A stretch of 64,000 bases of DNA from Candidatus Doudnabacteria bacterium. Its GTDB lineage: Bacteria; Patescibacteriota; Doudnabacteria; UBA920. The DNA is taken from contig JAEUSF010000006.1 in the NCBI GenBank assembly GCA_016788665.1, positions 4,401 to 68,400 of the forward strand. The letters run 5' to 3'. Within the stretch, counting starts at the first letter, position 1. The number at the start of each line of letters is the position of its first letter. Under the pieces are notes generated by a model, which ran no database searches, was not told the origin of the DNA, and worked only from the letters and a program-made list of their open reading frames with translations. Of the stretch, positions 6,460 to 63,880 are shown in pieces. A program made the position numbers and the translations under genes.

Positions 6460-6534
6460 GGCGCTATCGTCTAATGGTTAGGACAGGTGGTTCTCATCCA
6501 CCAAATCGGGGTTCGATTCCCCGTAGCGCTACCA
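6460..6534 (+). tRNA. tRNA-Glu (anticodon CUC)
   Basis: Cloverleaf folded by hand: acceptor GGCGCTA/TAGCGCT (G1-U72 wobble), D arm GTC..GAC, anticodon stem GGTGG/CCACC with loop TTCTCAT, T arm CGGGG-TTCGATT-CCCCG, encoded CCA. Confidence 0.8.
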
Positions 6535-6540
6535 ATTTTA

Positions 6541-6570
6541 AAAACCCAACCATAAGGTTGGGTTTTTAAA
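6541..6570 (+). terminator. rho-independent terminator after tRNA-Glu
   Basis: AAAACCCAACC-ATAA-GGTTGGGTTTTT hairpin plus T-run. Confidence 0.7.
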
Positions 6571-6666
6571 ATTGTCCCGAGCGAAGTCGAGGGGCACTAA
6601 ATTTGTTCCGAGCGCAGGCCCGCTCTGCGGGCTGTAGTCGAGAGACACAAATGTTATAATATAGAC

Positions 6667-6921
6667 ATGTTTTACTTTTATCTACTCCGCACTCCCAACA
6701 ACACCCTGTACACCGGCGTCACAAGTAATCTTAGAGACCGAGAAAACCGTCACAACACTGGCCGCGGTTCAATTTGGACAACTACGCACCACGGCGGAAA
6801 AATTGTCTACACCGAAACTTTTCCTACTTTATCTAAAGCCCGCCTCCGAGAAACCCAAGTCAAAAAATGGTCTCGGGTTAAAAAAGAAAATTTGATCAAA
6901 ATGTCAAAAGTCAAGACTTGA
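6667..6921 (+). CDS. GIY-YIG nuclease family protein (small, UPF0213-like)
   Basis: FYFYLLR..NTLYTGVTSNLRDRENRHN..KIVYTETF..SKARLRETQVKKWSRVKK matches GIY-YIG catalytic module; TATAAT 7 nt upstream of the ATG and no SD, suggesting a leaderless or very short leader. Confidence 0.8.
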   Translation: MFYFYLLRTPNNTLYTGVTSNLRDRENRHNTGRGSIWTTTHHGGKIVYTETFPTLSKARLRETQVKKWSRVKKENLIKMSKVKT

Positions 6922-26338: not shown

Positions 26339-26378
26339 GCAAAATACCTCAATACTAGCTAGTATTGAGGTATTTTGC
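26339..26378. repeat. 40-nt perfect palindrome GCAAAATACCTCAATACTAG|CTAGTATTGAGGTATTTTGC (copy 1)
   Basis: Read directly; the second copy at 35078-35117 matches at 39 of 40 positions. Confidence 0.9.
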
Positions 26379-26701
26379 TAATTTAAGAAACCTTTGTTAA
26401 AACGCTAAATTTATAACTACAAACCAAACTCAAAATAAATAATTATATAAATTCTTAGTTATTTAAAATATCCCGTCACATCTATTACTTTTACAGCAAT
26501 TTGTAAACAATCGAAGCCTATTTTTACTTTACCAATTTTATACAATACACTCATAACTTACAAATTCTACATAAATTTACTTTTATTATATAACTTTGGA
26601 TCGGAAGACTTTTAATAAAACAAGGTGCCACTTATTAATCAATATGTCATATTGAAAATTTCTGCTGAATGCTCTATACTGTATTGGATTTGCTTTATAC
26701 G

Positions 26702-26728
26702 TTGGGGTGTCGTCCCGACTAGCCGGGA
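26702..26728 (+). repeat. direct repeat copy L: tRNA-Gln 5' fragment (TTGGGGTGTCG) fused to the GTCCCGACTAGCCGGGA hairpin
   Basis: 11 nt identical to tRNA-Gln positions 27003-27013, followed by a near-palindrome; copy R at 27111-27145. Confidence 0.85.
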
Positions 26729-26744
26729 TAAGGAGCCGCACAAC

Positions 26745-26983
26745 ATGTACACGACTTATATATTACAAAACCCTTTGGGAAAGCTTTATATAGGTTACTC
26801 CAGTAATCTTGATGTTCGGATTAGTTGGCATAATTCGGTAAATCAAAATTTACCAGAAATAAAGGTCCATGGAAGTTGTTTTATAGTAAAGAATTTCTGA
26901 CAAAATCTGAAGCTATCAAATACGAATATTATCTTAAATCTTTAAAAAGTCCGGAGTATATTAAAAAACTTATTGTGAAATAA
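26745..26983 (+). pseudogene. GIY-YIG nuclease gene with a 1-nt frameshift
   Basis: MYTTYILQNPLGKLYIGYSSNLDVRISWHNS then, after a single-base frame change at about 26833-26837, GKSKFTRNKGPWKLFYSKEFLTKSEAIKYEYYLKSLKSPEYIKKLIVK*; the joined product is a canonical about 80-aa GIY-YIG protein; AAGGAG SD at 26730. Confidence 0.75.
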
Positions 26984-27098
26984 TTTTTTCCTTTCACCTT
27001 CATTGGGGTGTCGCCAAGTGGTAAGGCAGGGGCCTTTGAAGCCCCCATTCGTAGGTTCGAATCCTACCACCCCAGCCAGGTGAAAGGAAAAAATTATT
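26979..27098. repeat. 20-bp perfect inverted repeat enclosing tRNA-Gln
   Basis: AATAATTTTTTCCTTTCACC (26979-26998) is the exact reverse complement of GGTGAAAGGAAAAAATTATT (27079-27098); the tRNA sits in the 80-nt loop. Confidence 0.9.
27004..27078 (+). tRNA. tRNA-Gln (anticodon UUG)
   Basis: Acceptor TGGGGTG/CACCCCA with U1-A72 as in bacterial tRNA-Gln, D arm GCC..GGC, anticodon stem GGGGC/GCCCC with loop CTTTGAA, T arm GTAGG-TTCGAAT-CCTAC, discriminator G, encoded CCA. Confidence 0.8.
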
Positions 27099-27110
27099 TT
27101 ATAATAGTAA

Positions 27111-27145
27111 GGTGTCGTCCCGACTAGTCGGGACCACCCCAGCCA
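27111..27145 (+). repeat. direct repeat copy R: GGTGTCG + perfect palindrome GTCCCGACTAGTCGGGAC + duplicated tRNA-Gln 3' end ACCACCCCAGCCA
   Basis: 13 nt identical to the tRNA 3' end (27066-27078); followed by terminator hairpin CACCAATAAACATTGGTG plus T8 (27154-27179). Confidence 0.85.
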
Positions 27146-27318
27146 AAAGAATTCACCAATAAACATTGGTGTTTTTTTTATGGTATAAATTATTTTGAAC
27201 CAAACTTTCAACACTTTCTAGGGGTGGACGTTTTTCTACATTTTTGCTAAAATACAAGGTCTCTTGTCAATGCTGCGGCAGTAGGAAGACTAGAGTGAAT
27301 GTAAAGGAGGTGAGAAGA

Positions 27319-27753
27319 ATGCAAAGTATTCGCGCGTTTGTACCGTGGACGTTTTTTAGAAAGCTGCATCCGTTCAATGCGGAGCTGCTGAAAAGCAACG
27401 CTATGCTTGTCAGAGCATGCGGCGCTAAACCCGCAGACGGCAGCATTTTACGGTCTAGGGGTTATTTGCTTTTTGGAAACGGAGTGGCCACACTCCTTCC
27501 TCAAGCAGAGACACTCGCACAAGGACTGAACGGCGTAAAAGGTTACGTTATGGAATTCGTCCAAAAGCGTGACCCTCGTAATGTCGCCTACTGGGAAGTC
27601 CAAATCTCAGTAGACCAGACGCGGGTCGAGCGGGATTGGAGAATTGAAGCGTCCTGCTTGCCGCCAGATTCGGACGAGGGCATCCACTTCACGCCCCTCG
27701 TCGAACAGCAAGGCAAACCCGGACAGTATTTCTACCTTACTTGCGTAGCTTAG
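27319..27753 (+). CDS. hypothetical protein, GC-rich (gene A of islet)
   Basis: ATG at 27319 with AAGGAGG at 27304-27310; 144 aa; no recognisable domain. Confidence 0.5.
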   Translation: MQSIRAFVPWTFFRKLHPFNAELLKSNAMLVRACGAKPADGSILRSRGYLLFGNGVATLLPQAETLAQGLNGVKGYVMEFVQKRDPRNVAYWEVQISVDQTRVERDWRIEASCLPPDSDEGIHFTPLVEQQGKPGQYFYLTCVA

Positions 27754-27868
27754 GGCGGACAGCAATGTTCGCTAAACCGTAACTTGGGGTTTGTTGTCCA
27801 AATGCGGCCACCTTGTGTGGCTTTCCATAATGTGACAAACCCTCCTTAACCCCAAAAGGAGATTTGTC

Positions 27869-28354
27869 GTGAGAAACTTAGTCTACGTATCCGGGGCATT
27901 GAGCGATGTCCCCTCGGCCATTCGGCCTCTGTACCTCGACTTTTACGAGTTGATCGGACGGAAAGTCGAGACTCTCGGACTTGCTTCATATGTCCCGCAC
28001 CTCAACACAGACCCGGTGCGGCACAAAAACGTAACTCCGAAACAGGTCGACCTCATCGACCGGACAGCAGTCACCTCAGCTATGCTGGTCGTAGCCGTGG
28101 CAGACAATCCGTCGCTCGGTGTCGGTATTGAGGTCGAGATGGCCTTCCATGCTAACAAGCCGGTTGTACTTCTCTGCCAACGAGAACGAATCGAGCAGCG
28201 GCTCATTAGCCGCCTAATCCGCGGCAACCCTGCAGTCATCCACGAGATTGTTTATGTGGATTTCGCCGATGCGCTCTCTTTACTTGAAACGTTCATTCTT
28301 TCATTCCTGAAAGAACAGGCGGAGAGTATTCTTCCAAAGACGCTCAAAGTCTAG
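27869..28354 (+). CDS. DNPH1/Rcl-like 2'-deoxynucleoside-5'-phosphate N-glycosidase family protein (nucleoside 2-deoxyribosyltransferase fold)
   Basis: GTG start with AAGGAG SD; VYVSGALSDV N-terminal phosphate-loop-like segment and VAVADNPSLGVGIEVEMAFHANKPVVLL..ISRLIRGN closely parallel the DNPH1 motif PSLGVGYELG..A..NK (recalled from memory, not searched). Confidence 0.6.
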   Translation: MRNLVYVSGALSDVPSAIRPLYLDFYELIGRKVETLGLASYVPHLNTDPVRHKNVTPKQVDLIDRTAVTSAMLVVAVADNPSLGVGIEVEMAFHANKPVVLLCQRERIEQRLISRLIRGNPAVIHEIVYVDFADALSLLETFILSFLKEQAESILPKTLKV

Positions 28355-28487
28355 CAATCAGGCGGTGTCGCATACAGCGATGCCGTTTTTTTTGGTAATA
28401 AATCCACGTCTCAGTTTAGCGTATTATAACTTTCTAAACTCGCCTAACACCCTAAGCTTCAAATAATTGTATATACAGCTAACACTG

Positions 28488-28540
28488 AGTAAAAATTAAA
28501 AAAACCGCGGGGCAGACTGGTTGGTCTGCTCCGCGGCTGG
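28488..28540 (-). terminator. rho-independent terminator for the secreted beta-helix-like gene
   Basis: CCGCGGAGCAGACC..GGTCTGCCCCGCGG hairpin followed by a U-run on the minus strand. Confidence 0.6.
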
Positions 28541-28551
28541 ATTACTTCTTG

Positions 28552-29808
28552 TTATTGGTTGCCGTACAGCTTCGCTTCACACTCCACCTTACCGGTAGAA
28601 GCCGCGTTGGTTTGCGCGGTAAACTTAACGGTAAAGCCGGTGTAAGTCTTGTTGCTAAACGACACCGAAGGCGCTGCGTAGCCTGCAAACTCCTGCACGC
28701 CACACCCCGACAGCGAGTAGTTGGCTACCCCCGGGAGAAAAGGCGTGAGGAAATTGACCACGTAGGTGCAGGTGGATCCTGCGACTGCCGCGGTCGTACA
28801 GTTACTCTGCGGGTCGGCGGCGGTAACCATACGCACGCTACTAAGTTTGGTTAGAACCCCGGTAGCCGTGCGTGTGTTGATGATGCTGCAATCCTTACAG
28901 GGCGTAACGCCGTCAGGACTTGAACCATTCGAGATGGTTGTGTTGTAAGCGGGAGTTTCCCCATTAGGACCCGCCGTATCTTCCGCAACAACGCCGCCAG
29001 CTCCGTTTCCGGAAGTCTGGACTCCATCCACAACGTGGTCAAGCCCTCGCAAACTCAGCCCCCTACTTCCATTCGTAACCCTGAGGCTGCGAAATGTGAA
29101 ATAGGTTGAACCCATAACGTAAGCACCGTAACCACTTCCGGAGAGGTTTATGTAACCTCCCCACACGTTTACGCGCACAAAGTTAGAGTTCGAAGACGGA
29201 TTTGATGGCACCGTTACCAACCCGTAGGTGAACACTCCGGTCCACACAACCTCGTGTAGGTCAATATCGCCGGTATAGCAAGGAGCGCTACCACCCTCCA
29301 CCGTGCAGAGCCCAGCAGGGCTCCAATAGGTATTCTTAAGCACCAAGCCATCGGTGCGGTAGCGGGTAGTATTTCTGTTCGCGAATATCACGTTCCGGAG
29401 TTTCGCCCGGATCATGTTGTCGAGCACCACAGCATTCGCAGTGTTACTGTTTGAGGTAGTCAAGTCGAAGATGATATCCTCGAACTGCACCCCGTAGGAA
29501 AACATGCCCGGAAAGCCCATTGTGAAGATGGTGCTGCAACCATTGCAGCTGAGCCTTACCATCCCGCCGTTCTTGGGCCGAAACCGCACAACCACCTCTG
29601 AGGGAATGGTATTCCAAAGCCCGACCGAGATTTTACAATCGGACTCGAACAGAACCTCGCCTCCCCCAGACAAGACAATCAGGGGGTAATTCTGTTGCAG
29701 CGACAACGACGCAGTACCATCTGCGCATGACGCTGCGGTTACCACGTAGCTTGTGGCAGCCTGTGTACTGGCTACGAGAGCCAGAAACAGGACAAGAAGT
29801 CTAAACAT
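28552..29808 (-). CDS. secreted Cys-containing Gly/Ser/Thr/Asn-rich protein, possible right-handed beta-helix; GC-rich
   Basis: ATG at 29808 with AAGGAGGAG SD; signal peptide MFRLLVLFLALVASTQA; repetitive N/G/S/T-rich segments typical of beta-helix adhesin/lyase folds; fold not proven. Confidence 0.55.
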   Translation of the reverse strand: MFRLLVLFLALVASTQAATSYVVTAASCADGTASLSLQQNYPLIVLSGGGEVLFESDCKISVGLWNTIPSEVVVRFRPKNGGMVRLSCNGCSTIFTMGFPGMFSYGVQFEDIIFDLTTSNSNTANAVVLDNMIRAKLRNVIFANRNTTRYRTDGLVLKNTYWSPAGLCTVEGGSAPCYTGDIDLHEVVWTGVFTYGLVTVPSNPSSNSNFVRVNVWGGYINLSGSGYGAYVMGSTYFTFRSLRVTNGSRGLSLRGLDHVVDGVQTSGNGAGGVVAEDTAGPNGETPAYNTTISNGSSPDGVTPCKDCSIINTRTATGVLTKLSSVRMVTAADPQSNCTTAAVAGSTCTYVVNFLTPFLPGVANYSLSGCGVQEFAGYAAPSVSFSNKTYTGFTVKFTAQTNAASTGKVECEAKLYGNQ

Positions 29809-30246
29809 TAACTCCTCCTTATGGGAGCTAGTGCCCGCACCTATAGCAAGGCGCAGATTTCCGAAATTATGACAGATTCCAGAGTGCACATTGAGGTCTC
29901 AGCGCAAATGACAAGCGCTTTATTTTGACCAGTGCCCGTTGGCACCTCTGTTGGCACAGAGGGTAATTATATTAAATATTCATTAAATTGTAAATAGTGC
30001 CCATATCCTAGCGGACAATTTACGCGAATTACCCACTAGGAAAATACTATAAATTAACTATACATGTAATAGCTTTTTAAAAGGTTGTTTGGTATTATTA
30101 CTAAAGTTAATAACAACTTTAGAATACCTTTTTAAACAAAAAATGTGTAATAAAATTACTAATGTAAAATAATTTTTAATATATTTATATTCTAAACATA
30201 AGCAAAACAATTTTATTTCATAATATACTTAGTTCAATACTCCCAT

Positions 30247-34182: not shown

Positions 34183-34315
34183 ATTAAACGAGTAATACAA
34201 ACCAAATAGCCGCTTACCAATCTTCCCTGGGAAGATTTTTTATTTAATTACTTCTTAAGTTTTTTTAGCTATGGTGTACTTAGTCAATAAAATTTTAAAC
34301 TAATTGCACAAACTT

Positions 34316-35035
34316 ATGCCACAAAATTACAAGAAAGACTTAAGTCCGCCCAAAAAAACACTAACCCAACAACAGCTCGAACTTATTCGTAATACCGTAG
34401 CCAAAGGTGCCACGCCTGACGAGCTAAAACTGTTTTTAATAGTAGCCAACAGAGCCGGTCTCGACCCTTTTACAAGACAAATACACTTTGTAAAGAGGGG
34501 TGGCAGAGCCACAGTACAGACTGGTATAGACGGCTATAGAGCCATAGCAGAAAGAAGCGGGAGCCTGGCGGGCATAGAAGACGCATTATACGACGCCGAA
34601 GACCAAGTCCACCCGAACAAAGCCACGGTGACAGTTTATAGAATGGTGAGTGGGCAAAGAGTTCCGTTTAGTGCTTCTGCCAGATGGGATGAATACGTGC
34701 CCCAAAGCGGACAAGACTTTATGTGGCGGAAAATGCCCTACTTTATGCTCGGTAAAGTTGCGGAAGCATTAGCTTTAAGAAAAGCATTCCCAAACGACTT
34801 AAGCGGACTTTACATTCACGAGGAAATGCAACGTGACGACAACAGTACGGAAAATGATTCAGAAGCGCTAATAAATCACAACAGCACCTCTCAAGAAAAA
34901 GAAAGTTCTTTAGACCCCACATTAACTGCCGCAAAAGATTACTCAAAAAAATTCTGGTCCCGCGCCGAACAACAAACACCTGCCTCAGAAAAACAAGCGC
35001 CTGTTTACCAAAAAGAAGCACTAGACGAGCCCTAA
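34316..35035 (+). CDS. recT: RecT/Bet-family phage single-strand annealing recombinase
   Basis: LTQQQLELIRNTVAKGATPDELKLFLIVANRAGLDPFTRQIHFVKRGGRATVQTGIDGYRAIAERSG is a textbook RecT (PF03837) core; track start is TTG, ATG at 34316. Confidence 0.8.
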   Translation: MPQNYKKDLSPPKKTLTQQQLELIRNTVAKGATPDELKLFLIVANRAGLDPFTRQIHFVKRGGRATVQTGIDGYRAIAERSGSLAGIEDALYDAEDQVHPNKATVTVYRMVSGQRVPFSASARWDEYVPQSGQDFMWRKMPYFMLGKVAEALALRKAFPNDLSGLYIHEEMQRDDNSTENDSEALINHNSTSQEKESSLDPTLTAAKDYSKKFWSRAEQQTPASEKQAPVYQKEALDEP

Positions 35036-35077: not shown

Positions 35078-35117
35078 GCAAAATACCTCAATACTAGCTA
35101 GTATTAAGGTATTTTGC
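35078..35117. repeat. 40-nt palindrome, copy 2 (39 of 40 palindromic)
   Basis: GCAAAATACCTCAATACTAGCTAGTATTAAGGTATTTTGC; the single mismatch is at 35106. Confidence 0.9.
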
Positions 35118-35177
35118 TAAATAACACGCAGTGACAGACTAATGGATACATGCTAAAATTCTCTGCAAGGAGGCCGC

Positions 35178-46103: not shown

Positions 46104-46106
46104 AGG

Positions 46107-46155
46107 AGTAGTGAGTAGTGAGTAGTGAGTAGTGAGTAGTGAGTAGTGAGTAGTG
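46107..46155. repeat. (AGTAGTG)x7 perfect heptanucleotide tandem array abutting the dinB start codon
   Basis: Counted directly: seven exact copies 46107-46155, immediately 5' of the ATG at 46103 (minus strand). Confidence 0.95.
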
Positions 46156-60232: not shown

Positions 60233-60354
60233 AATATTGAAGCAACCTCTCCCTGCCCTCTCCTAAAAAGGAGAGGGAAAGGCTACAACTGCATTCCTCT
60301 CCCCTCCTAGAATAGGAGGGGTGTCCCGATTTATCGGGACGGGGTGGTAGAGAC

Positions 60355-60689
60355 CTACGATAAATACCTTTTTATTTCTTGAACAACTCCATTTAAATCA
60401 CTTAATACTTCTTTATTTTGGAATCTAATTATTTTAATACCCTGACTCTCTATAAACCCTGCGCGTTTTATATCATTCTGATAGCTTACAGCATTATCAT
60501 GAGTAGAGCCATCTAGCTCAATTCCCAAACGTAACTCTGGGCAATAAAAATCTAAAGAATAAATTCCTACACCATATTGCCTTCTAAACTTTTTACCTAG
60601 TTTATTACCTTTTAATTGTCTCCAAAGTATAATTTCCGGAAGGCCAAGGTTGTTTCTGAGTTTTTGCCTTAGGCCTTTTTAATTAGCAT
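60355..60689 (-). pseudogene. DUF559 (Vsr-like restriction-endonuclease-fold) gene with an N-terminal frameshift
   Basis: Minus-strand translation LRNNLGLPEIILWRQLKGNKLGKKFRRQYGVGIYSLDFYCPELRLGIELDGSTHDNAVSYQNDIKRAGFIESQGIKIIRFQNKEVL matches DUF559; the only ATG (MLIKKA, 60689) is in another frame and hits a stop after 6 codons; one frame change would restore a ~113-aa protein. Confidence 0.65.
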
Positions 60690-60846
60690 TGTTGTATAAG
60701 TAGTCCATACTCTACCACCTCCCGTCGCTAGCGCGACGTACTCCTCCTGTTCCAAGAGGAGAATACTGCAACAGCTTTCTTTCTAATACAGAATTCCAAT
60801 TTTACTTTACTTAATAAAATACTTCTTTTTTATCTTTTAGGTTACA

Positions 60847-63827: not shown

Positions 63828-63830
63828 ATA

Positions 63831-63880
63831 AGTAGTAAGTAGTAAGTAGTAAGTAGTAAGTTTGATACCTACTACTTACT
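63831..63880. repeat. (AGTAGTA)x4 heptad array abutting the galT start, with inverted copy TACTACTTACTA (63868-63880) forming a potential hairpin over the ruvX stop
   Basis: Read directly. Confidence 0.9.

What the first reader, a model, noticed from the sequence alone, without database searches (positions are those of the whole stretch)
27117..27134. Recurring GTCCCGA-N3/4-TCGGGAC hairpin beside three different selfish-nuclease ORFs
The same short hairpin appears in four places:
- 26712-26728 (GTCCCGACTAGCCGGGA), upstream of GIY-YIG #2;
- 27117-27134 (GTCCCGACTAGTCGGGAC, an 18-nt perfect palindrome), downstream of the GIY-YIG #2 / tRNA-Gln unit;
- 60323-60340 (GTCCCGATTTATCGGGAC), immediately 3' of the DUF559 pseudogene;
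- 6574-6594 (GTCCCGAGCGAAGTCGAGGGG), a degenerate form upstream of GIY-YIG #1.

It sits next to two nuclease families (GIY-YIG and Vsr-like DUF559) that are commonly homing or selfish. That placement suggests a shared recognition, cleavage or excision site, or a common RNA structural element of one family of tiny mobile cassettes.
Basis: seen in the sequence. Interest (0 to 1): 0.75.

Follow-up and report, generated by a model that had tools for sequence, protein, structure and literature searches.

The report
Boundary hairpins of tRNA-linked nuclease mini-cassettes
The repeated little hairpin is real and marks the edges of tiny selfish nuclease-gene cassettes in a Candidatus Doudnabacteria (CPR) genome, one of them wedged inside the shell of an old tRNA-Gln gene; following it up exposed a widespread link between minimal GIY-YIG nuclease genes and the ends of tRNA/tmRNA genes, for which my literature searches found no description.

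Summary
GTCCCGA-N4-TCGGGAC occurs exactly twice (27117, 60323; none expected). 26712 is a copy with 2 mismatches. 6574 is a different motif.

- **26712 and 27117.** They lie in a 23-nt direct repeat that brackets a frameshifted GIY-YIG gene plus an intact tRNA-Gln. The repeat abuts an 11-nt 5' stub and a 13-nt 3' stub of tRNA-Gln. A promoter-like site precedes the unit and a terminator follows it. This looks like a cassette nested in an older tRNA-Gln gene.
- **60323.** It fills a structure-conserved, sequence-variable hairpin slot in inverted end modules flanking a DUF559 pseudogene. Six of 7 pairs covary across related genomes.
- **6572-6648.** This holds two copies of a separate hairpin with a tandem G·A core. 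That hairpin precedes Slx1-like GIY-YIG genes in many phyla. In 43 of 80 such loci the gene lies just downstream of a tRNA or tmRNA gene.

The hairpins are not terminators, not a known Rfam family, and not one sequence-specific site. The best reading is REP/MITE-like boundary palindromes of nuclease mini-cassettes. A DNA-level role in insertion is inferred, and a role in the RNA cannot be excluded. Interest is moderate to high, mainly for the wider tRNA-linked system.

The parts
26652..26680 (+). Sigma-70-like promoter (TTGAAA-17-TATACT), 22 nt upstream of the tRNA-Gln 5' stub. Presumed promoter of the ancestral tRNA-Gln gene, now driving the whole unit.
   Evidence: 10 of 12 matches, the best in the region. 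Its function is inferred.
26702..26712 (+). tRNA-Gln 5' stub: TTGGGGTGTCG, identical to 27003-27013 (the base before the tRNA plus positions 1-10). The break falls in the D-stem.
   Evidence: D8, 11 nt, 100%
26712..26729 (+). Hairpin copy a (GTCCCGACTAGCCGGGAT, 2 mismatches). It lies in the left copy of the 23-nt direct repeat 26706-26728, flush with the 5' stub, and is followed by the SD AAGGAG (26730-26735).
26745..26983 (+). GIY-YIG #2: minimal GIY-YIG domain, frameshifted near 26861-26897 (pseudogene).
26971..26999 (+). Left arm of the 29-nt inverted repeat (93%) that encloses tRNA-Gln.
   Evidence: I1. L143 has the analogous inverted repeat around tRNA-Asp.
27004..27078 (+). Intact tRNA-Gln(UUG) with encoded CCA, carried inside the unit.
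   Evidence: 66.2 bits
27078..27106 (+). Right arm of the 29-nt inverted repeat around tRNA-Gln.
   Evidence: I1
27111..27134 (+). Right copy of the 23-nt direct repeat (27111-27133), which contains the reported 18-nt perfect palindrome GTCCCGACTAGTCGGGAC (27117-27134).
   Evidence: D1, I9
27133..27145 (+). tRNA-Gln 3' stub: ACCACCCCAGCCA, identical to 27066-27078 (end of the T-stem, acceptor 3' strand, discriminator, CCA), flush with hairpin b.
   Evidence: D7, 13 nt, 100%
27154..27179 (+). Intrinsic terminator (CACCAAT-AAAC-ATTGGTG plus T8) directly after the 3' stub. Presumed terminator of the ancestral tRNA-Gln gene.
60292..60352 (-). 3' end module of the DUF559 cassette: TCTACCACCCC, then the variable hairpin (60323-60340, the reported copy), then AC, then CCCCTCC..GGAGGGG (60301-60321).
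60355..60708 (-). DUF559 (Vsr-like) gene with an in-frame TAA at codon 10. It lies between rpe and tktN, as in related genomes.
60710..60761 (-). 5' end module of the DUF559 cassette, the inverted counterpart of the 3' module: CTCCTC..GGAGGAG (60761-60741), TA, hairpin CGTCGCGCTAGCGACG (60738-60723), GGAGGTGGTAGAG (includes the SD).
6572..6648 (+). Two tandem copies (6572-6597, 6603-6648) of the conserved GIY-YIG leader hairpin 'H3' (GYCYC-GAGCG...GAGTCGAG-GRGRC). This is a different family from the reported hairpin.
6667..6921 (+). GIY-YIG #1: intact, 84 aa, bacterial Slx1-like / UPF0213. It lies downstream of tRNA-Glu (6460-6534) and its terminator (6533-6574).

Best explanation
The GTCCCGA-N4-TCGGGAC hairpin is a short G+C-rich boundary palindrome of miniature selfish nuclease-gene cassettes. 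It is comparable to a REP sequence or to the core of a MITE terminal repeat. It is not a sequence-specific site shared by three nucleases.

**Site 2 (shown).**
- The two copies are the ends of a unit of about 420 bp: hairpin a, SD, GIY-YIG (now frameshifted), an intact tRNA-Gln embedded in a 29-bp inverted repeat, hairpin b.
- This unit sits inside the shell of an older tRNA-Gln gene. The shell consists of a promoter-like site, the first 11 nt, the last 13 nt and a terminator.
- Because the hairpin is palindromic and the two acceptor-stem stubs are complementary, the unit's ends form a terminal inverted repeat of about 27 nt.

**Site 3 (shown).**
- The hairpin fills a fixed slot in inverted end modules flanking a DUF559 gene.
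- The slot's structure is kept by compensatory substitutions in related genomes. Its sequence is not kept.
- The module-plus-ORF unit occurs at different loci in different genomes.

**Mechanism (inferred).**
- The cassettes spread into or next to tRNA and tmRNA genes by DNA breakage and copying repair. The end hairpins extrude as stem-loops or cruciforms and define the junctions.
- The encoded nucleases are catalytic-domain-only enzymes of the structure-specific Slx1-like class, so a structured substrate is more plausible than a long sequence-specific site.
- The cassette carries or regenerates a whole tRNA, so the host keeps the function.
- In the transcript the same repeats give long-range helices. 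These helices probably also help to process the tRNA and to stabilise the nuclease mRNA.
For: **Observation and chance.**
- Two exact copies against none in 100 shuffles, plus a third copy with 2 mismatches.
- The window holds 19 perfect G+C-rich hairpins against about 1.4 in shuffles. Most of them have the A-tract/T-tract shape of terminators; the ones studied here do not.

**Site 2 anatomy.**
- 23-nt direct repeat, 11-nt 5' stub, 13-nt 3' stub, and a 29-nt inverted repeat around tRNA-Gln.
- Promoter-like site at 26652-26680 and terminator at 27154-27179.
- In the RNA fold of 26702-27146 the two ends pair in a long-range helix; z-score -9.

**Same architecture in an independent genome (L143).**
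- tRNA-Asp 5' stubs with hairpins, a GIY-YIG ORF 38% identical to #2, and tRNA-Asp inside an inverted repeat.

**Hairpins flush with tRNA breakpoints elsewhere.**
- 5' stubs ending at about position 12 followed by a hairpin: L187 (two), L157, L162 (tmRNA).
- A hairpin directly before the acceptor 3' strand: L124 and L134.

**DUF559.**
- Orthologues lie in rpe-DUF559-tkt synteny. L206 has the gene at another locus with the same modules.
- ORF-less module pairs occur in L205 and L206.
- Six of 7 pairs of the variable hairpin show compensatory changes; 0 of 500 shuffles reach the observed score.

**The nuclease.** GIY-YIG #1 matches PDB 1zg2 and 1ywl, which PMC1564403 classes as minimal bacterial Slx1-family domains.

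**Signs of mobility or duplication.**
- Nearly identical leaders follow 10 or more different tRNA species and tmRNA.
- Two near-identical cassettes lie 4 kb apart in one genome, L131/L132.
- Copies of the tRNA or tmRNA 3' end follow the ORF in L166 and L171.
Against: - No empty (uninterrupted) tRNA-Gln allele was recovered, so the direction and mechanism of insertion remain inferred.
- No recombinase or transposase lies in the unit. No GIY-YIG or Vsr-like protein is known to act as a transposase.
- Both cassettes with the exact hairpin are pseudogenised.
- The DUF559 cassette is syntenic in four related contigs. Its hairpins keep their structure by compensatory change, which fits a function selected in the host operon (for example in RNA) better than a dead transposon end.
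- A clear tRNA 3'-end duplication follows the GIY-YIG ORF in only 2-5 of 44 loci. In the window's cassette #1 it is not significant.
- The 23-nt repeat could also come from local duplication rather than from insertion.
Confidence: 0.55

Rival explanations
1. The hairpins are RNA-level cis elements with no role in mobility. They fold in the transcript as intercistronic stabilisers or processing signals: REP-like 3'-5' exonuclease blocks, RNase III stems, or sequestration of the SD. They persist because they regulate or insulate the nuclease mRNA and the co-transcribed tRNA or the pentose-phosphate operon.
For: - All copies are co-oriented with, and inside, plausible transcription units. Site 2 has a promoter and terminator. 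The DUF559 gene lies inside rpiB-rpe-DUF559-tktN-tktC.
- Compensatory substitutions keep the DUF559 hairpin over the divergence of several genomes.
- GGAGGTGGTAGA, which contains the SD, is complementary to TCTACCACCCC just after the stop codon.
- The 445-nt unit folds with a closing helix of about 27 bp and an inner 29-bp helix around the tRNA; z-score -9.
- The leader hairpin H3 has a conserved tandem G·A core, typical of structured single strands.
Against: - This does not explain why the hairpins sit exactly at breakpoints of tRNA-gene fragments in many genomes.
- It does not explain the 23-nt direct repeat.
- It does not explain why H3 also occurs inverted, overlapping the tRNA CCA end. 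On the transcribed strand the G·A pairs would then become C·U.
- It does not explain ORF-less module pairs, or the same modules at non-homologous loci.
Confidence: 0.25
2. One reading: the hairpin sequence GTCCCGA..TCGGGAC is a common recognition, cleavage or excision site used by the GIY-YIG and/or DUF559 nucleases of this genome.
For: - The same 7-bp stem occurs in two unrelated cassettes of one genome, while orthologous DUF559 loci in other genomes carry other stems. With GTC fixed, four free base pairs coinciding has a chance of roughly 1/256 (my estimate). This hints at within-genome homogenisation or a shared trans-acting factor.
- GTGTCCCGA is also the 5' arm of the conserved GIY-YIG leader hairpin.
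- An intact GIY-YIG (#1) is present in the window.
Against: - The sequence is not conserved at the orthologous slot; only the structure is.
- The hairpin lacks the conserved CGAG...CGAG core of the GIY-YIG leader hairpin and scores at noise level with its model.
- The adjacent nucleases are a frameshifted and a nonsense-mutated pseudogene.
- Exact copies also occur in unrelated contexts: inside an ORF in L169 and in an unannotated intergenic region in L153.
- The extended motif in metagenomes is mostly in unrelated, G+C-rich contexts.
Confidence: 0.12
3. Nothing special: the matches are chance palindromes, ordinary intrinsic terminators, or an assembly artefact of a metagenome-assembled contig.
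For: - The hairpins are short (7 bp).
- G+C-rich hairpins are common in this A+T-rich genome (19 in 64 kb).
- Palindromes can seed mis-assemblies.
Against: - None of 100 shuffles gives even one match.
- There is no T-tract, and the terminator scan does not call them.
- The hairpins' flanks are exact copies of tRNA-Gln ends.
- The same architectures recur in independently assembled genomes.
Confidence: 0.04

Closest known systems
REP sequences and REPIN/RAYT systems, especially the CGTC/TGTC-tagged REPs of Di Nocera et al. 2013 (PMC3733652)
   Same: - Short G+C-rich extragenic palindromes with 4-5-nt loops.
- Often paired head-to-head so that they can form larger hairpins.
- Located after coding regions inside operons.
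- A C/TGTC motif at the 5' edge (here TGTCGTCCCGA and CCCCGTCCCGA) and a CCA-like tail.
- The CGTC class has no known transposase.
   Different: - Here GTC is base-paired.
- The stem is 7 bp and G+C-rich at its base, not 8-9 bp with A/T first.
- Only 3 copies are seen in 64 kb.
- The associated genes are GIY-YIG and DUF559 nucleases, not Y1 (RAYT) transposases.
- The copies abut tRNA-gene fragments.
MITEs and Rickettsia palindromic elements (RPEs)
   Same: - Small units bounded by inverted repeats, with ORF-less derivatives (L205, L206).
- Palindromic insertions inside RNA genes or pseudogenes (L143, L134).
   Different: - No clear target-site duplication.
- No recognised transposase.
- The terminal repeats are built from hairpin modules whose sequence drifts while the structure is kept.
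Free-standing GIY-YIG homing endonucleases of phage T4 (Seg proteins; SegB lies in the tRNA gene cluster; PMC13096335, and my own knowledge of Brok-Volchanskaya et al. 2008)
   Same: A GIY-YIG nuclease gene inserted between or next to tRNA genes, presumably spreading by a break in a conserved neighbour followed by copying repair.
   Different: - Seg and I-TevI enzymes carry a C-terminal DNA-binding domain and recognise long sequences.
- The proteins here are 80-90-aa Slx1-like catalytic domains only.
- The host is a CPR bacterium, not a phage.
- Conserved hairpin leaders and tRNA stubs are not features of seg loci.
Integrative elements that target tRNA/tmRNA genes (att-site duplication)
   Same: The insert is flanked by copies of the tRNA end, and an intact tRNA is regenerated (window site 2; L166, L171).
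   Different: - No tyrosine or serine recombinase.
- The unit is only 0.3-0.45 kb.
- Both 5' and 3' stubs are present.
- Hairpins lie at the junctions.
Slx1 / bacterial UPF0213 (YhbQ-like) GIY-YIG proteins (PMC1564403; PDB 1zg2, 1ywl)
   Same: GIY-YIG #1 is a member by sequence. Eukaryotic Slx1 is a structure-specific nuclease, which fits hairpin or cruciform substrates.
   Different: The bacterial family was interpreted as vertically inherited repair proteins. A systematic link to tRNA/tmRNA gene ends and to a hairpin leader is not described in the papers I could search.

Membership tests
GIY-YIG leader hairpin 'H3' (model R1, built here from 42 loci) | Outer 5-bp stem GYCYC/GRGRC that covaries | tested here: met
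   27117 and 60323 have GTCCC/GGGAC. The family's covariation is shown.
GIY-YIG leader hairpin 'H3' (model R1, built here from 42 loci) | Conserved internal core GAGCG...GAGTCGAG (tandem G·A), and a model score above noise | tested here: not met
   60321-60342 scores 12.3 bits (E 0.49), 27115-27136 scores 8.6 bits (E 5), and 26712 is not reported. For comparison, 6572-6597 (36.1 bits) and 6603-6648 (25.6 bits) do match, but both were in the training alignment.
GIY-YIG leader hairpin 'H3' (model R1, built here from 42 loci) | Position 7-80 nt 5' of a GIY-YIG start codon | tested here: inconclusive
   26712-26729 ends 15 nt before the ATG at 26745. 27117 and 60323 are not upstream of a GIY-YIG gene.
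Intrinsic (rho-independent) terminator | G+C-rich stem followed by a T-tract | tested here: not met
   the scans call 27154-27179 and 26339-26378 but none of the three hairpins. The bases that follow are CACCCCAG, TAAGGAG and GGGGTGG.
CGTC/TGTC-tagged REP superfamily (PMC3733652) | Unpaired CGTC/TGTC head; 8-9-bp stem with A/T at the first two positions; 4-5-nt loop; CCA-like tail | tested here: inconclusive
   The head motif (TGTCGTC, CCGTC), the 4-nt loop and a C-rich tail beginning CAC/CCAC at 27135 are present. But GTC is paired and the stem is 7 bp and G+C-rich.
CGTC/TGTC-tagged REP superfamily (PMC3733652) | Tens to thousands of dispersed copies per genome | not testable with these tools
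   Only a 64-kb window of the genome is available. It holds 3 copies.
MITE / TIR-bounded element | Terminal inverted repeats | tested here: met
   Site 2: arms 26706-26728 and 27118-27140, 87% complementary (I3). DUF559: modules of about 54 nt.
MITE / TIR-bounded element | Target-site duplication and multiple ORF-less copies | tested here: inconclusive
   The 23-nt direct repeat could be a duplication of a pre-existing hairpin target. ORF-less module pairs are seen in L205 and L206 only.
tRNA-targeting integrative element | Direct repeats of the tRNA end flank the insert | tested here: met
   (D7 13 nt, D8 11 nt).
tRNA-targeting integrative element | Element-encoded tyrosine or serine recombinase | tested here: not met
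   The unit 26702-27145 encodes only a GIY-YIG pseudogene and a tRNA. No integrase was found in the neighbouring ORFs that were scanned.
Free-standing homing endonuclease (Seg / I-TevI type) | Nuclease domain plus a sequence-specific DNA-binding domain | tested here: not met
   The proteins are 79-93 aa, with one Pfam GIY-YIG domain covering the whole length.
Free-standing homing endonuclease (Seg / I-TevI type) | Presence/absence polymorphism at the same site between close relatives | not tested
The window proteins that were tried are not on record.
tRNA gene / tRNA-like RNA | Cloverleaf recognised by ARAGORN or Rfam RF00005 | tested here: not met
   27108-27145 and 26702-26729 are not called. 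The stubs plus hairpin b fold only as an acceptor-like stem stacked on a hairpin.

The most novel reading that the evidence does not exclude
Minimal Slx1-like GIY-YIG genes, together with their tandem-G·A hairpins, form a structure-guided class of selfish element. It would be a REP/RAYT-like partnership run by a GIY-YIG nuclease that homes to the ends and helix junctions of tRNA and tmRNA genes.

- The nuclease would cut DNA that extrudes as hairpin, cruciform or cloverleaf. The breakpoints seen here lie in or at the edge of the D-stem (positions 10-12), in the variable region (44/45) and at the T-stem/acceptor junction (65/66); others fall at positions 17-19 and in the anticodon loop (35/36).
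- Repair would copy the cassette. That would leave tRNA stubs capped by boundary hairpins such as GTCCCGA..TCGGGAC, and sometimes a replacement tRNA that makes the cassette hard to lose.
Probability: 0.2. Interest if true: 0.85.

Novelty: new variant of a known kind. Interest (0 to 1): 0.62.

Why it matters
- **tRNA and tmRNA genes as insertion sites.** If the reading is right, these genes in CPR and other bacteria are used by nuclease cassettes of only 0.3-0.45 kb. The cassettes ride on tRNA promoters, and some carry their own replacement tRNA. That would explain the many tRNA stubs, pseudo-tRNAs and small 'GIY-YIG family protein' or 'DUF559' genes that clutter these streamlined genomes.
- **A testable substrate.** The bacterial Slx1-like/UPF0213 family has no established function. 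Hairpin and cruciform DNA next to tRNA genes would be a concrete substrate to test.
- **A link for orphan REPs.** It would connect REP-like palindromes that lack a transposase to nucleases of other folds.
- **Annotation.** The conserved leader (an inverted H3 overlapping the CCA end, a further hairpin, then H3) is a candidate new structured element. No Rfam family matches it.

Tried and rejected
- **Rfam.** At gathering and at permissive thresholds on the window and on 14 loci, only tRNA and tmRNA matched.
- **Generic hairpin in viral contigs.** One unrelated tandem array turned up in L023.
- **Extended motif in viral contigs.** The hits were chance matches inside coding regions.
- **Extended motif in metagenomes.** There were 10 hits and no tRNA-Gln relatives. 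Only L216 resembles the DUF559-type module, and no DUF559 ORF is detectable next to it.
- **Homologues of GIY-YIG #2.** The word index returned none. The only relative came from tblastn against fetched loci (L143).
- **Source contig look-ups.** The two window proteins I tried are not on record.
- **A tRNA-Glu 3' stub after GIY-YIG #1 in the window.** The resemblance I saw by eye is not significant: score 14 against a control maximum of 18.
- **An H3-like hairpin in the DUF559 slot of L206.** It scores only 12.4 bits, E 0.14, so this link between the GIY-YIG and DUF559 hairpins is weak.
- **The 43-nt palindrome pair (26339 / 35078) as att sites of an island at tRNA-Gln.** There is no tRNA-end repeat near 35 kb and no integrase. 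It was left as an aside.
- **Foldback or P-nucleotide origin of the palindrome.** The half-sites do not match the tRNA sequence next to the breaks (by inspection).
- **Literature.** Seven searches found no description of GIY-YIG cassettes linked to tRNA/tmRNA genes, or of these hairpins.
Full report
**Source and genes.**
- The window is a contig of a Candidatus Doudnabacteria (CPR/Patescibacteria) metagenome-assembled genome. Its GIY-YIG #1 and DUF559 products are 99-100% identical to NCBI proteins from a 68,452-bp contig of that taxon.
- GIY-YIG #1 (6667-6921, 84 aa) is intact.
- GIY-YIG #2 (26745-26983) is frameshifted.
- The DUF559 gene (60355-60708, minus strand) has an in-frame TAA at codon 10 where orthologues have Lys.
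- Two tRNA genes are present: tRNA-Glu at 6460-6534 and tRNA-Gln at 27004-27078.

**Checking the observation.**
- GTCCCGA-N3-6-TCGGGAC has exactly two matches, at 27117-27134 and 60323-60340. None of 100 dinucleotide-preserving shuffles gave a match.
- 26712-26729 differs from the 27117 copy at two positions.
- The fourth site shares only the heptamer GTCCCGA. I show below that it is another motif.
- The window has 19 perfect G+C-rich hairpins against about 1.4 in shuffles. Most are classical terminators with A- and T-tracts. Those at 27117, 60256, 60301 and 60323 are not, and the terminator scan does not call them.

**Site 2 is a nested structure**.
- The two hairpin copies lie in a 23-nt direct repeat, GGTGTCGTCCCGACTAG[C/T]CGGGA (26706-26728 and 27111-27133).
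- The left copy is preceded by TTGG, so 26702-26712 (TTGGGGTGTCG) is identical to the first 11 nt at the tRNA-Gln gene (27003-27013).
- The right copy runs into ACCACCCCAGCCA (27133-27145), identical to the last 13 nt of the tRNA including the discriminator and CCA.
- The best promoter-like site of the region (TTGAAA-17-TATACT, 26652-26680) lies 22 nt upstream of the 5' stub.
- A strong intrinsic terminator (27154-27179) follows the 3' stub.
- Between the stubs lie, in order: hairpin a, an SD (AAGGAG), the GIY-YIG pseudogene, a 29-nt inverted repeat (93%) that encloses the intact tRNA-Gln, 11 nt, and the second repeat copy with hairpin b.
- My reading is that the promoter, first 10-11 nt, last 11-13 nt and terminator are the shell of an older tRNA-Gln gene. 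Its core (positions about 11-65) has been replaced by a unit of about 420 bp that brings its own tRNA-Gln.
- Because the hairpin is palindromic and the acceptor strands are complementary, the ends of the unit are also inverted repeats (87% over 23 nt).
- As RNA, the 445-nt unit folds with its two ends paired in a long helix and an inner helix around the tRNA; z-score -9.
- The right end alone folds as a short acceptor-like stem stacked on the hairpin. ARAGORN and Rfam do not call it a tRNA.

**The same architecture in another genome.**
- tblastn of GIY-YIG #2 against the fetched loci found its best relative (38% identity) in L143, a Patescibacteria MAG.
- There the ORF is preceded by two 5' stubs of tRNA-Asp (positions 1-12 and 1-19), each followed at once by G+C-rich hairpins.
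- The ORF is followed by an intact tRNA-Asp embedded in an inverted repeat.
- A third pseudo-fragment, with a hairpin inserted in the variable-loop region, lies downstream.
- 5' stubs ending at about position 12 and followed directly by a hairpin whose stem closes TCC...GGA or CCC...GGG also precede intact tRNAs or tmRNA in L187 (two), L157 and L162. L156 and L161 carry 5' halves that end in the anticodon loop.
- Hairpins placed directly before the acceptor 3' strand, as at 27117, occur in pseudo tRNA-Glu ends in L124 and L134.
- So a hairpin flush with a tRNA-gene breakpoint is a recurrent feature, not a peculiarity of this window.

**Site 3 is a slot in a conserved end module.**
- Close DUF559 orthologues (75-82% identity) lie in the same place, between ribulose-phosphate 3-epimerase and transketolase, in four related contigs, L202-L205.
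- A 74%-identical copy lies at an unrelated locus in L206.
- All are flanked by inverted modules. Upstream: CTCCTCC-loop-GGAGGAG, TA, a variable hairpin, GGAGGTGGTAGA (which includes the SD), ATG. Downstream: stop, TCTACCACCCC, a variable hairpin starting GTC, AC, CCCCTCC-loop-GGAGGGG.
- The window's 60323 hairpin occupies the downstream variable slot. Orthologues have GTCCGCC/GCGGAC, GTCTCGC/GCGAGC or GTCACCC/GGTGAC there.
- On an alignment of 11 modules, 6 of the 7 pairs of this hairpin show changes on both sides. 92% of cells are paired, against 45-56% when the partners are slid. None of 500 shuffles reaches the covariation score.
- ORF-less pairs of modules occur in L205 and L206.
- So structure, not sequence, is maintained, and module plus ORF behaves as a unit that has occupied different loci.

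**Why is the stem the same at sites 2 and 3?**
- The window's stem equals that of site 2, while orthologous slots differ. With GTC fixed, four free base pairs coinciding has a chance of roughly 1/256 (my estimate).
- This may reflect within-genome homogenisation or a shared trans-acting factor. I could not decide between them.
- A metagenome scan for GGGGTGTCGTCCCGA-N3-6-YCGGGA gave 10 hits, mostly unrelated.
- One hit, L216, is a solo module of the DUF559 type carrying GTCGTCCCGACTGTTCGGGA.

**Site 1 is a different and much more widespread element.**
- I fetched 80 loci encoding relatives of GIY-YIG #1 from GTDB genomes.
- In 43 of them a same-strand tRNA or tmRNA gene ends less than 260 nt upstream of the ORF. 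The tRNA species are Glu, Ala, Ile, Ser, Trp, Lys, Asp, Asn and Arg.
- The loci come from Patescibacteria, Planctomycetota, Omnitrophota and other phyla.
- In at least 42 loci a hairpin lies 7-80 nt before the ATG. It has a covarying outer stem (GTCCC/GGGGC, GCCTC/GAGGC, GTTTC/GAAAC) and a conserved core, GAGCG...GAGTCGAG. The core places G·A/A·G opposite each other and accepts a variable inner hairpin.
- 6572-6597 and 6603-6648 are two tandem members.
- A covariance model of this hairpin (R1) finds 80 hits in 441 kb of loci. Plus-strand hits lie almost always just 5' of the GIY-YIG ATG.
- Minus-strand hits begin 3-6 nt inside the tRNA's 3' end in 12 tRNA-linked loci, so that the CCA end forms part of the outer stem.
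- By eye, CCA-CTCGAC pairs with GTCGAG-TGG, and CCC-CTCGAC pairs with GTCGAG-GGG.
- The same model scores the reported hairpins at noise level: 12.3 and 8.6 bits. They are therefore not members, although they share GTGTCCCGA with the family's 5' arm.
- No Rfam family matches these leaders.

**Signs of duplication or insertion at tRNA genes.**
- Unambiguous copies of the tRNA or tmRNA 3' end follow the ORF in L166 and L171. Weaker ones follow in L123, L124 and L130. Most loci have none, including the window's cassette #1.
- L131 and L132 are two cassettes with near-identical leaders, 4 kb apart in one genome.

**What the nucleases are.**
- GIY-YIG #1 matches PDB 1zg2 and 1ywl (UPF0213). [quoted passage not shown] They lack any auxiliary domain and were considered vertically inherited (PMC1564403).
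- Eukaryotic Slx1 is a structure-specific endonuclease. That it would accept hairpin or cruciform substrates here is my inference.
- These proteins lack the DNA-binding domain of classical GIY-YIG homing endonucleases.

**Interpretation.**
- The anatomy is solid. The reported hairpin is a boundary element of two different nuclease mini-cassettes, and site 1 carries the boundary or leader hairpin of a third type.
- The mechanism is inferred. I favour a DNA-level role for three reasons. The hairpins sit exactly at tRNA breakpoints. The repeat brackets the insert. The leader hairpin occurs in both orientations, including one overlapping the tRNA's CCA end.
- An RNA-level role is a serious rival and may coexist. 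This role could be processing, stabilisation, or SD sequestration by the GGAGGTGGTAGA / TCTACCACCCC pairing. The units are transcribed from tRNA or operon promoters, and the DUF559 hairpins show compensatory evolution inside a conserved operon.

**Comparison with known systems.**
- The nearest described repeats are REP sequences, in particular the CGTC/TGTC-tagged class. That class has 4-5-nt loops and CCA-like tails and lacks a known transposase (PMC3733652). The resemblance is partial: the stem length and composition differ, the GTC is paired here, and copy number could not be tested.
- Other partial analogues are MITEs and Rickettsia palindromic elements, T4 SegB in the phage tRNA cluster, and tRNA-targeting integrative elements.
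- Seven literature searches found no description of minimal GIY-YIG genes linked to tRNA/tmRNA 3' ends through a conserved hairpin leader, or of tRNA stubs capped by hairpins in CPR genomes. The library lacks most subscription journals, so prior description cannot be excluded.

**Verdict.** The finding is real and non-random. Its interpretation is half right. It leads to a broader system that appears undescribed and deserves follow-up. I rate the hairpin itself as a new variant of a known kind (REP/MITE-like boundary palindromes) and interest at about 0.6.

Noticed in passing
L122-L201 (e.g. L128 2371-2503, L126 2366-2503); window 6572-6648: Minimal Slx1-like GIY-YIG genes lie 90-230 nt downstream of tRNA or tmRNA genes in 43 of 80 loci from several phyla. 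A conserved multi-hairpin leader joins them. Its first hairpin is an inverted copy of the ATG-proximal hairpin and overlaps the tRNA's CCA end. No Rfam family matches.
   Followed up: partly
L187 2098-2270 and 1782-1900; L157 1966-2083; L162 1890-1959; L161 2356-2400; L156 2170-2276: Intact tRNA or tmRNA genes are preceded by exact copies of their own first 12 nt (or first 35 nt), followed by a G+C-rich hairpin and A+T-rich DNA, with no nuclease ORF in between. These may be remnants of 5'-type cassettes or small ORF-less insertions.
   Followed up: partly
window 26339-26381 and 35078-35120: A 43-nt sequence whose first 40 nt form a perfect palindrome (GCAAAATACCTCAATACTAG/CTAGTATTGAGGTATTTTGC, then TAA) occurs twice at 98% identity. 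The copies bracket 8.7 kb that includes the site-2 unit, a segment of 49-52% G+C (27-30 kb) with orphan ORFs, and a RecT gene (34304-35035). It could be an island boundary or a bidirectional terminator family.
   Followed up: partly
window 27000-30000: G+C content jumps from about 36-40% to 49-52% directly downstream of the tRNA-Gln unit. The ORFs there (27244-27753 and 28552-29889) have no Pfam match. This suggests horizontally acquired DNA next to the tRNA.
   Followed up: no
window 60256-60277 and 60301-60321: Two further perfect hairpins of the CCYCTCC..GGAGRGG type lie next to the 60323 hairpin, between DUF559 and transketolase. The first of them (60256-60277) lies outside the conserved module.
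   Followed up: partly
window 46106-46155 and 63830-63851: Short tandem heptamer arrays, (GAGTAGT)n and (AAGTAGT)n, lie in intergenic DNA upstream of minus-strand genes.
   Followed up: no
L131 and L132 (same contig CAVYGQ010000001.1, about 4 kb apart): Two GIY-YIG cassettes with near-identical leaders lie in one Doudnabacteria genome. One follows tRNA-Glu. The other follows only a degenerate ...GGTCTACCA end.
   Followed up: partly
L153 4890-5100: An exact GTCCCGA-N8-TCGGGAC hairpin sits in an unannotated, G+C-rich, apparently structured intergenic region next to infC. No Rfam match.
   Followed up: partly
L023 10000-10480 (IMG/VR viral contig, 56% G+C): An irregular array of about 14 copies of GGTCCCGAG-N3-CTCGGGACC-type palindromes, unrelated in context to the window.
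   Followed up: no
L205 1310-1460; L206 1250-1500 and 1855-1990: Extra ORF-less copies of the DUF559 end modules are stacked next to the DUF559 gene. In L206 one slot holds a hairpin that weakly resembles the GIY-YIG leader hairpin (12.4 bits, E 0.14).
   Followed up: partly
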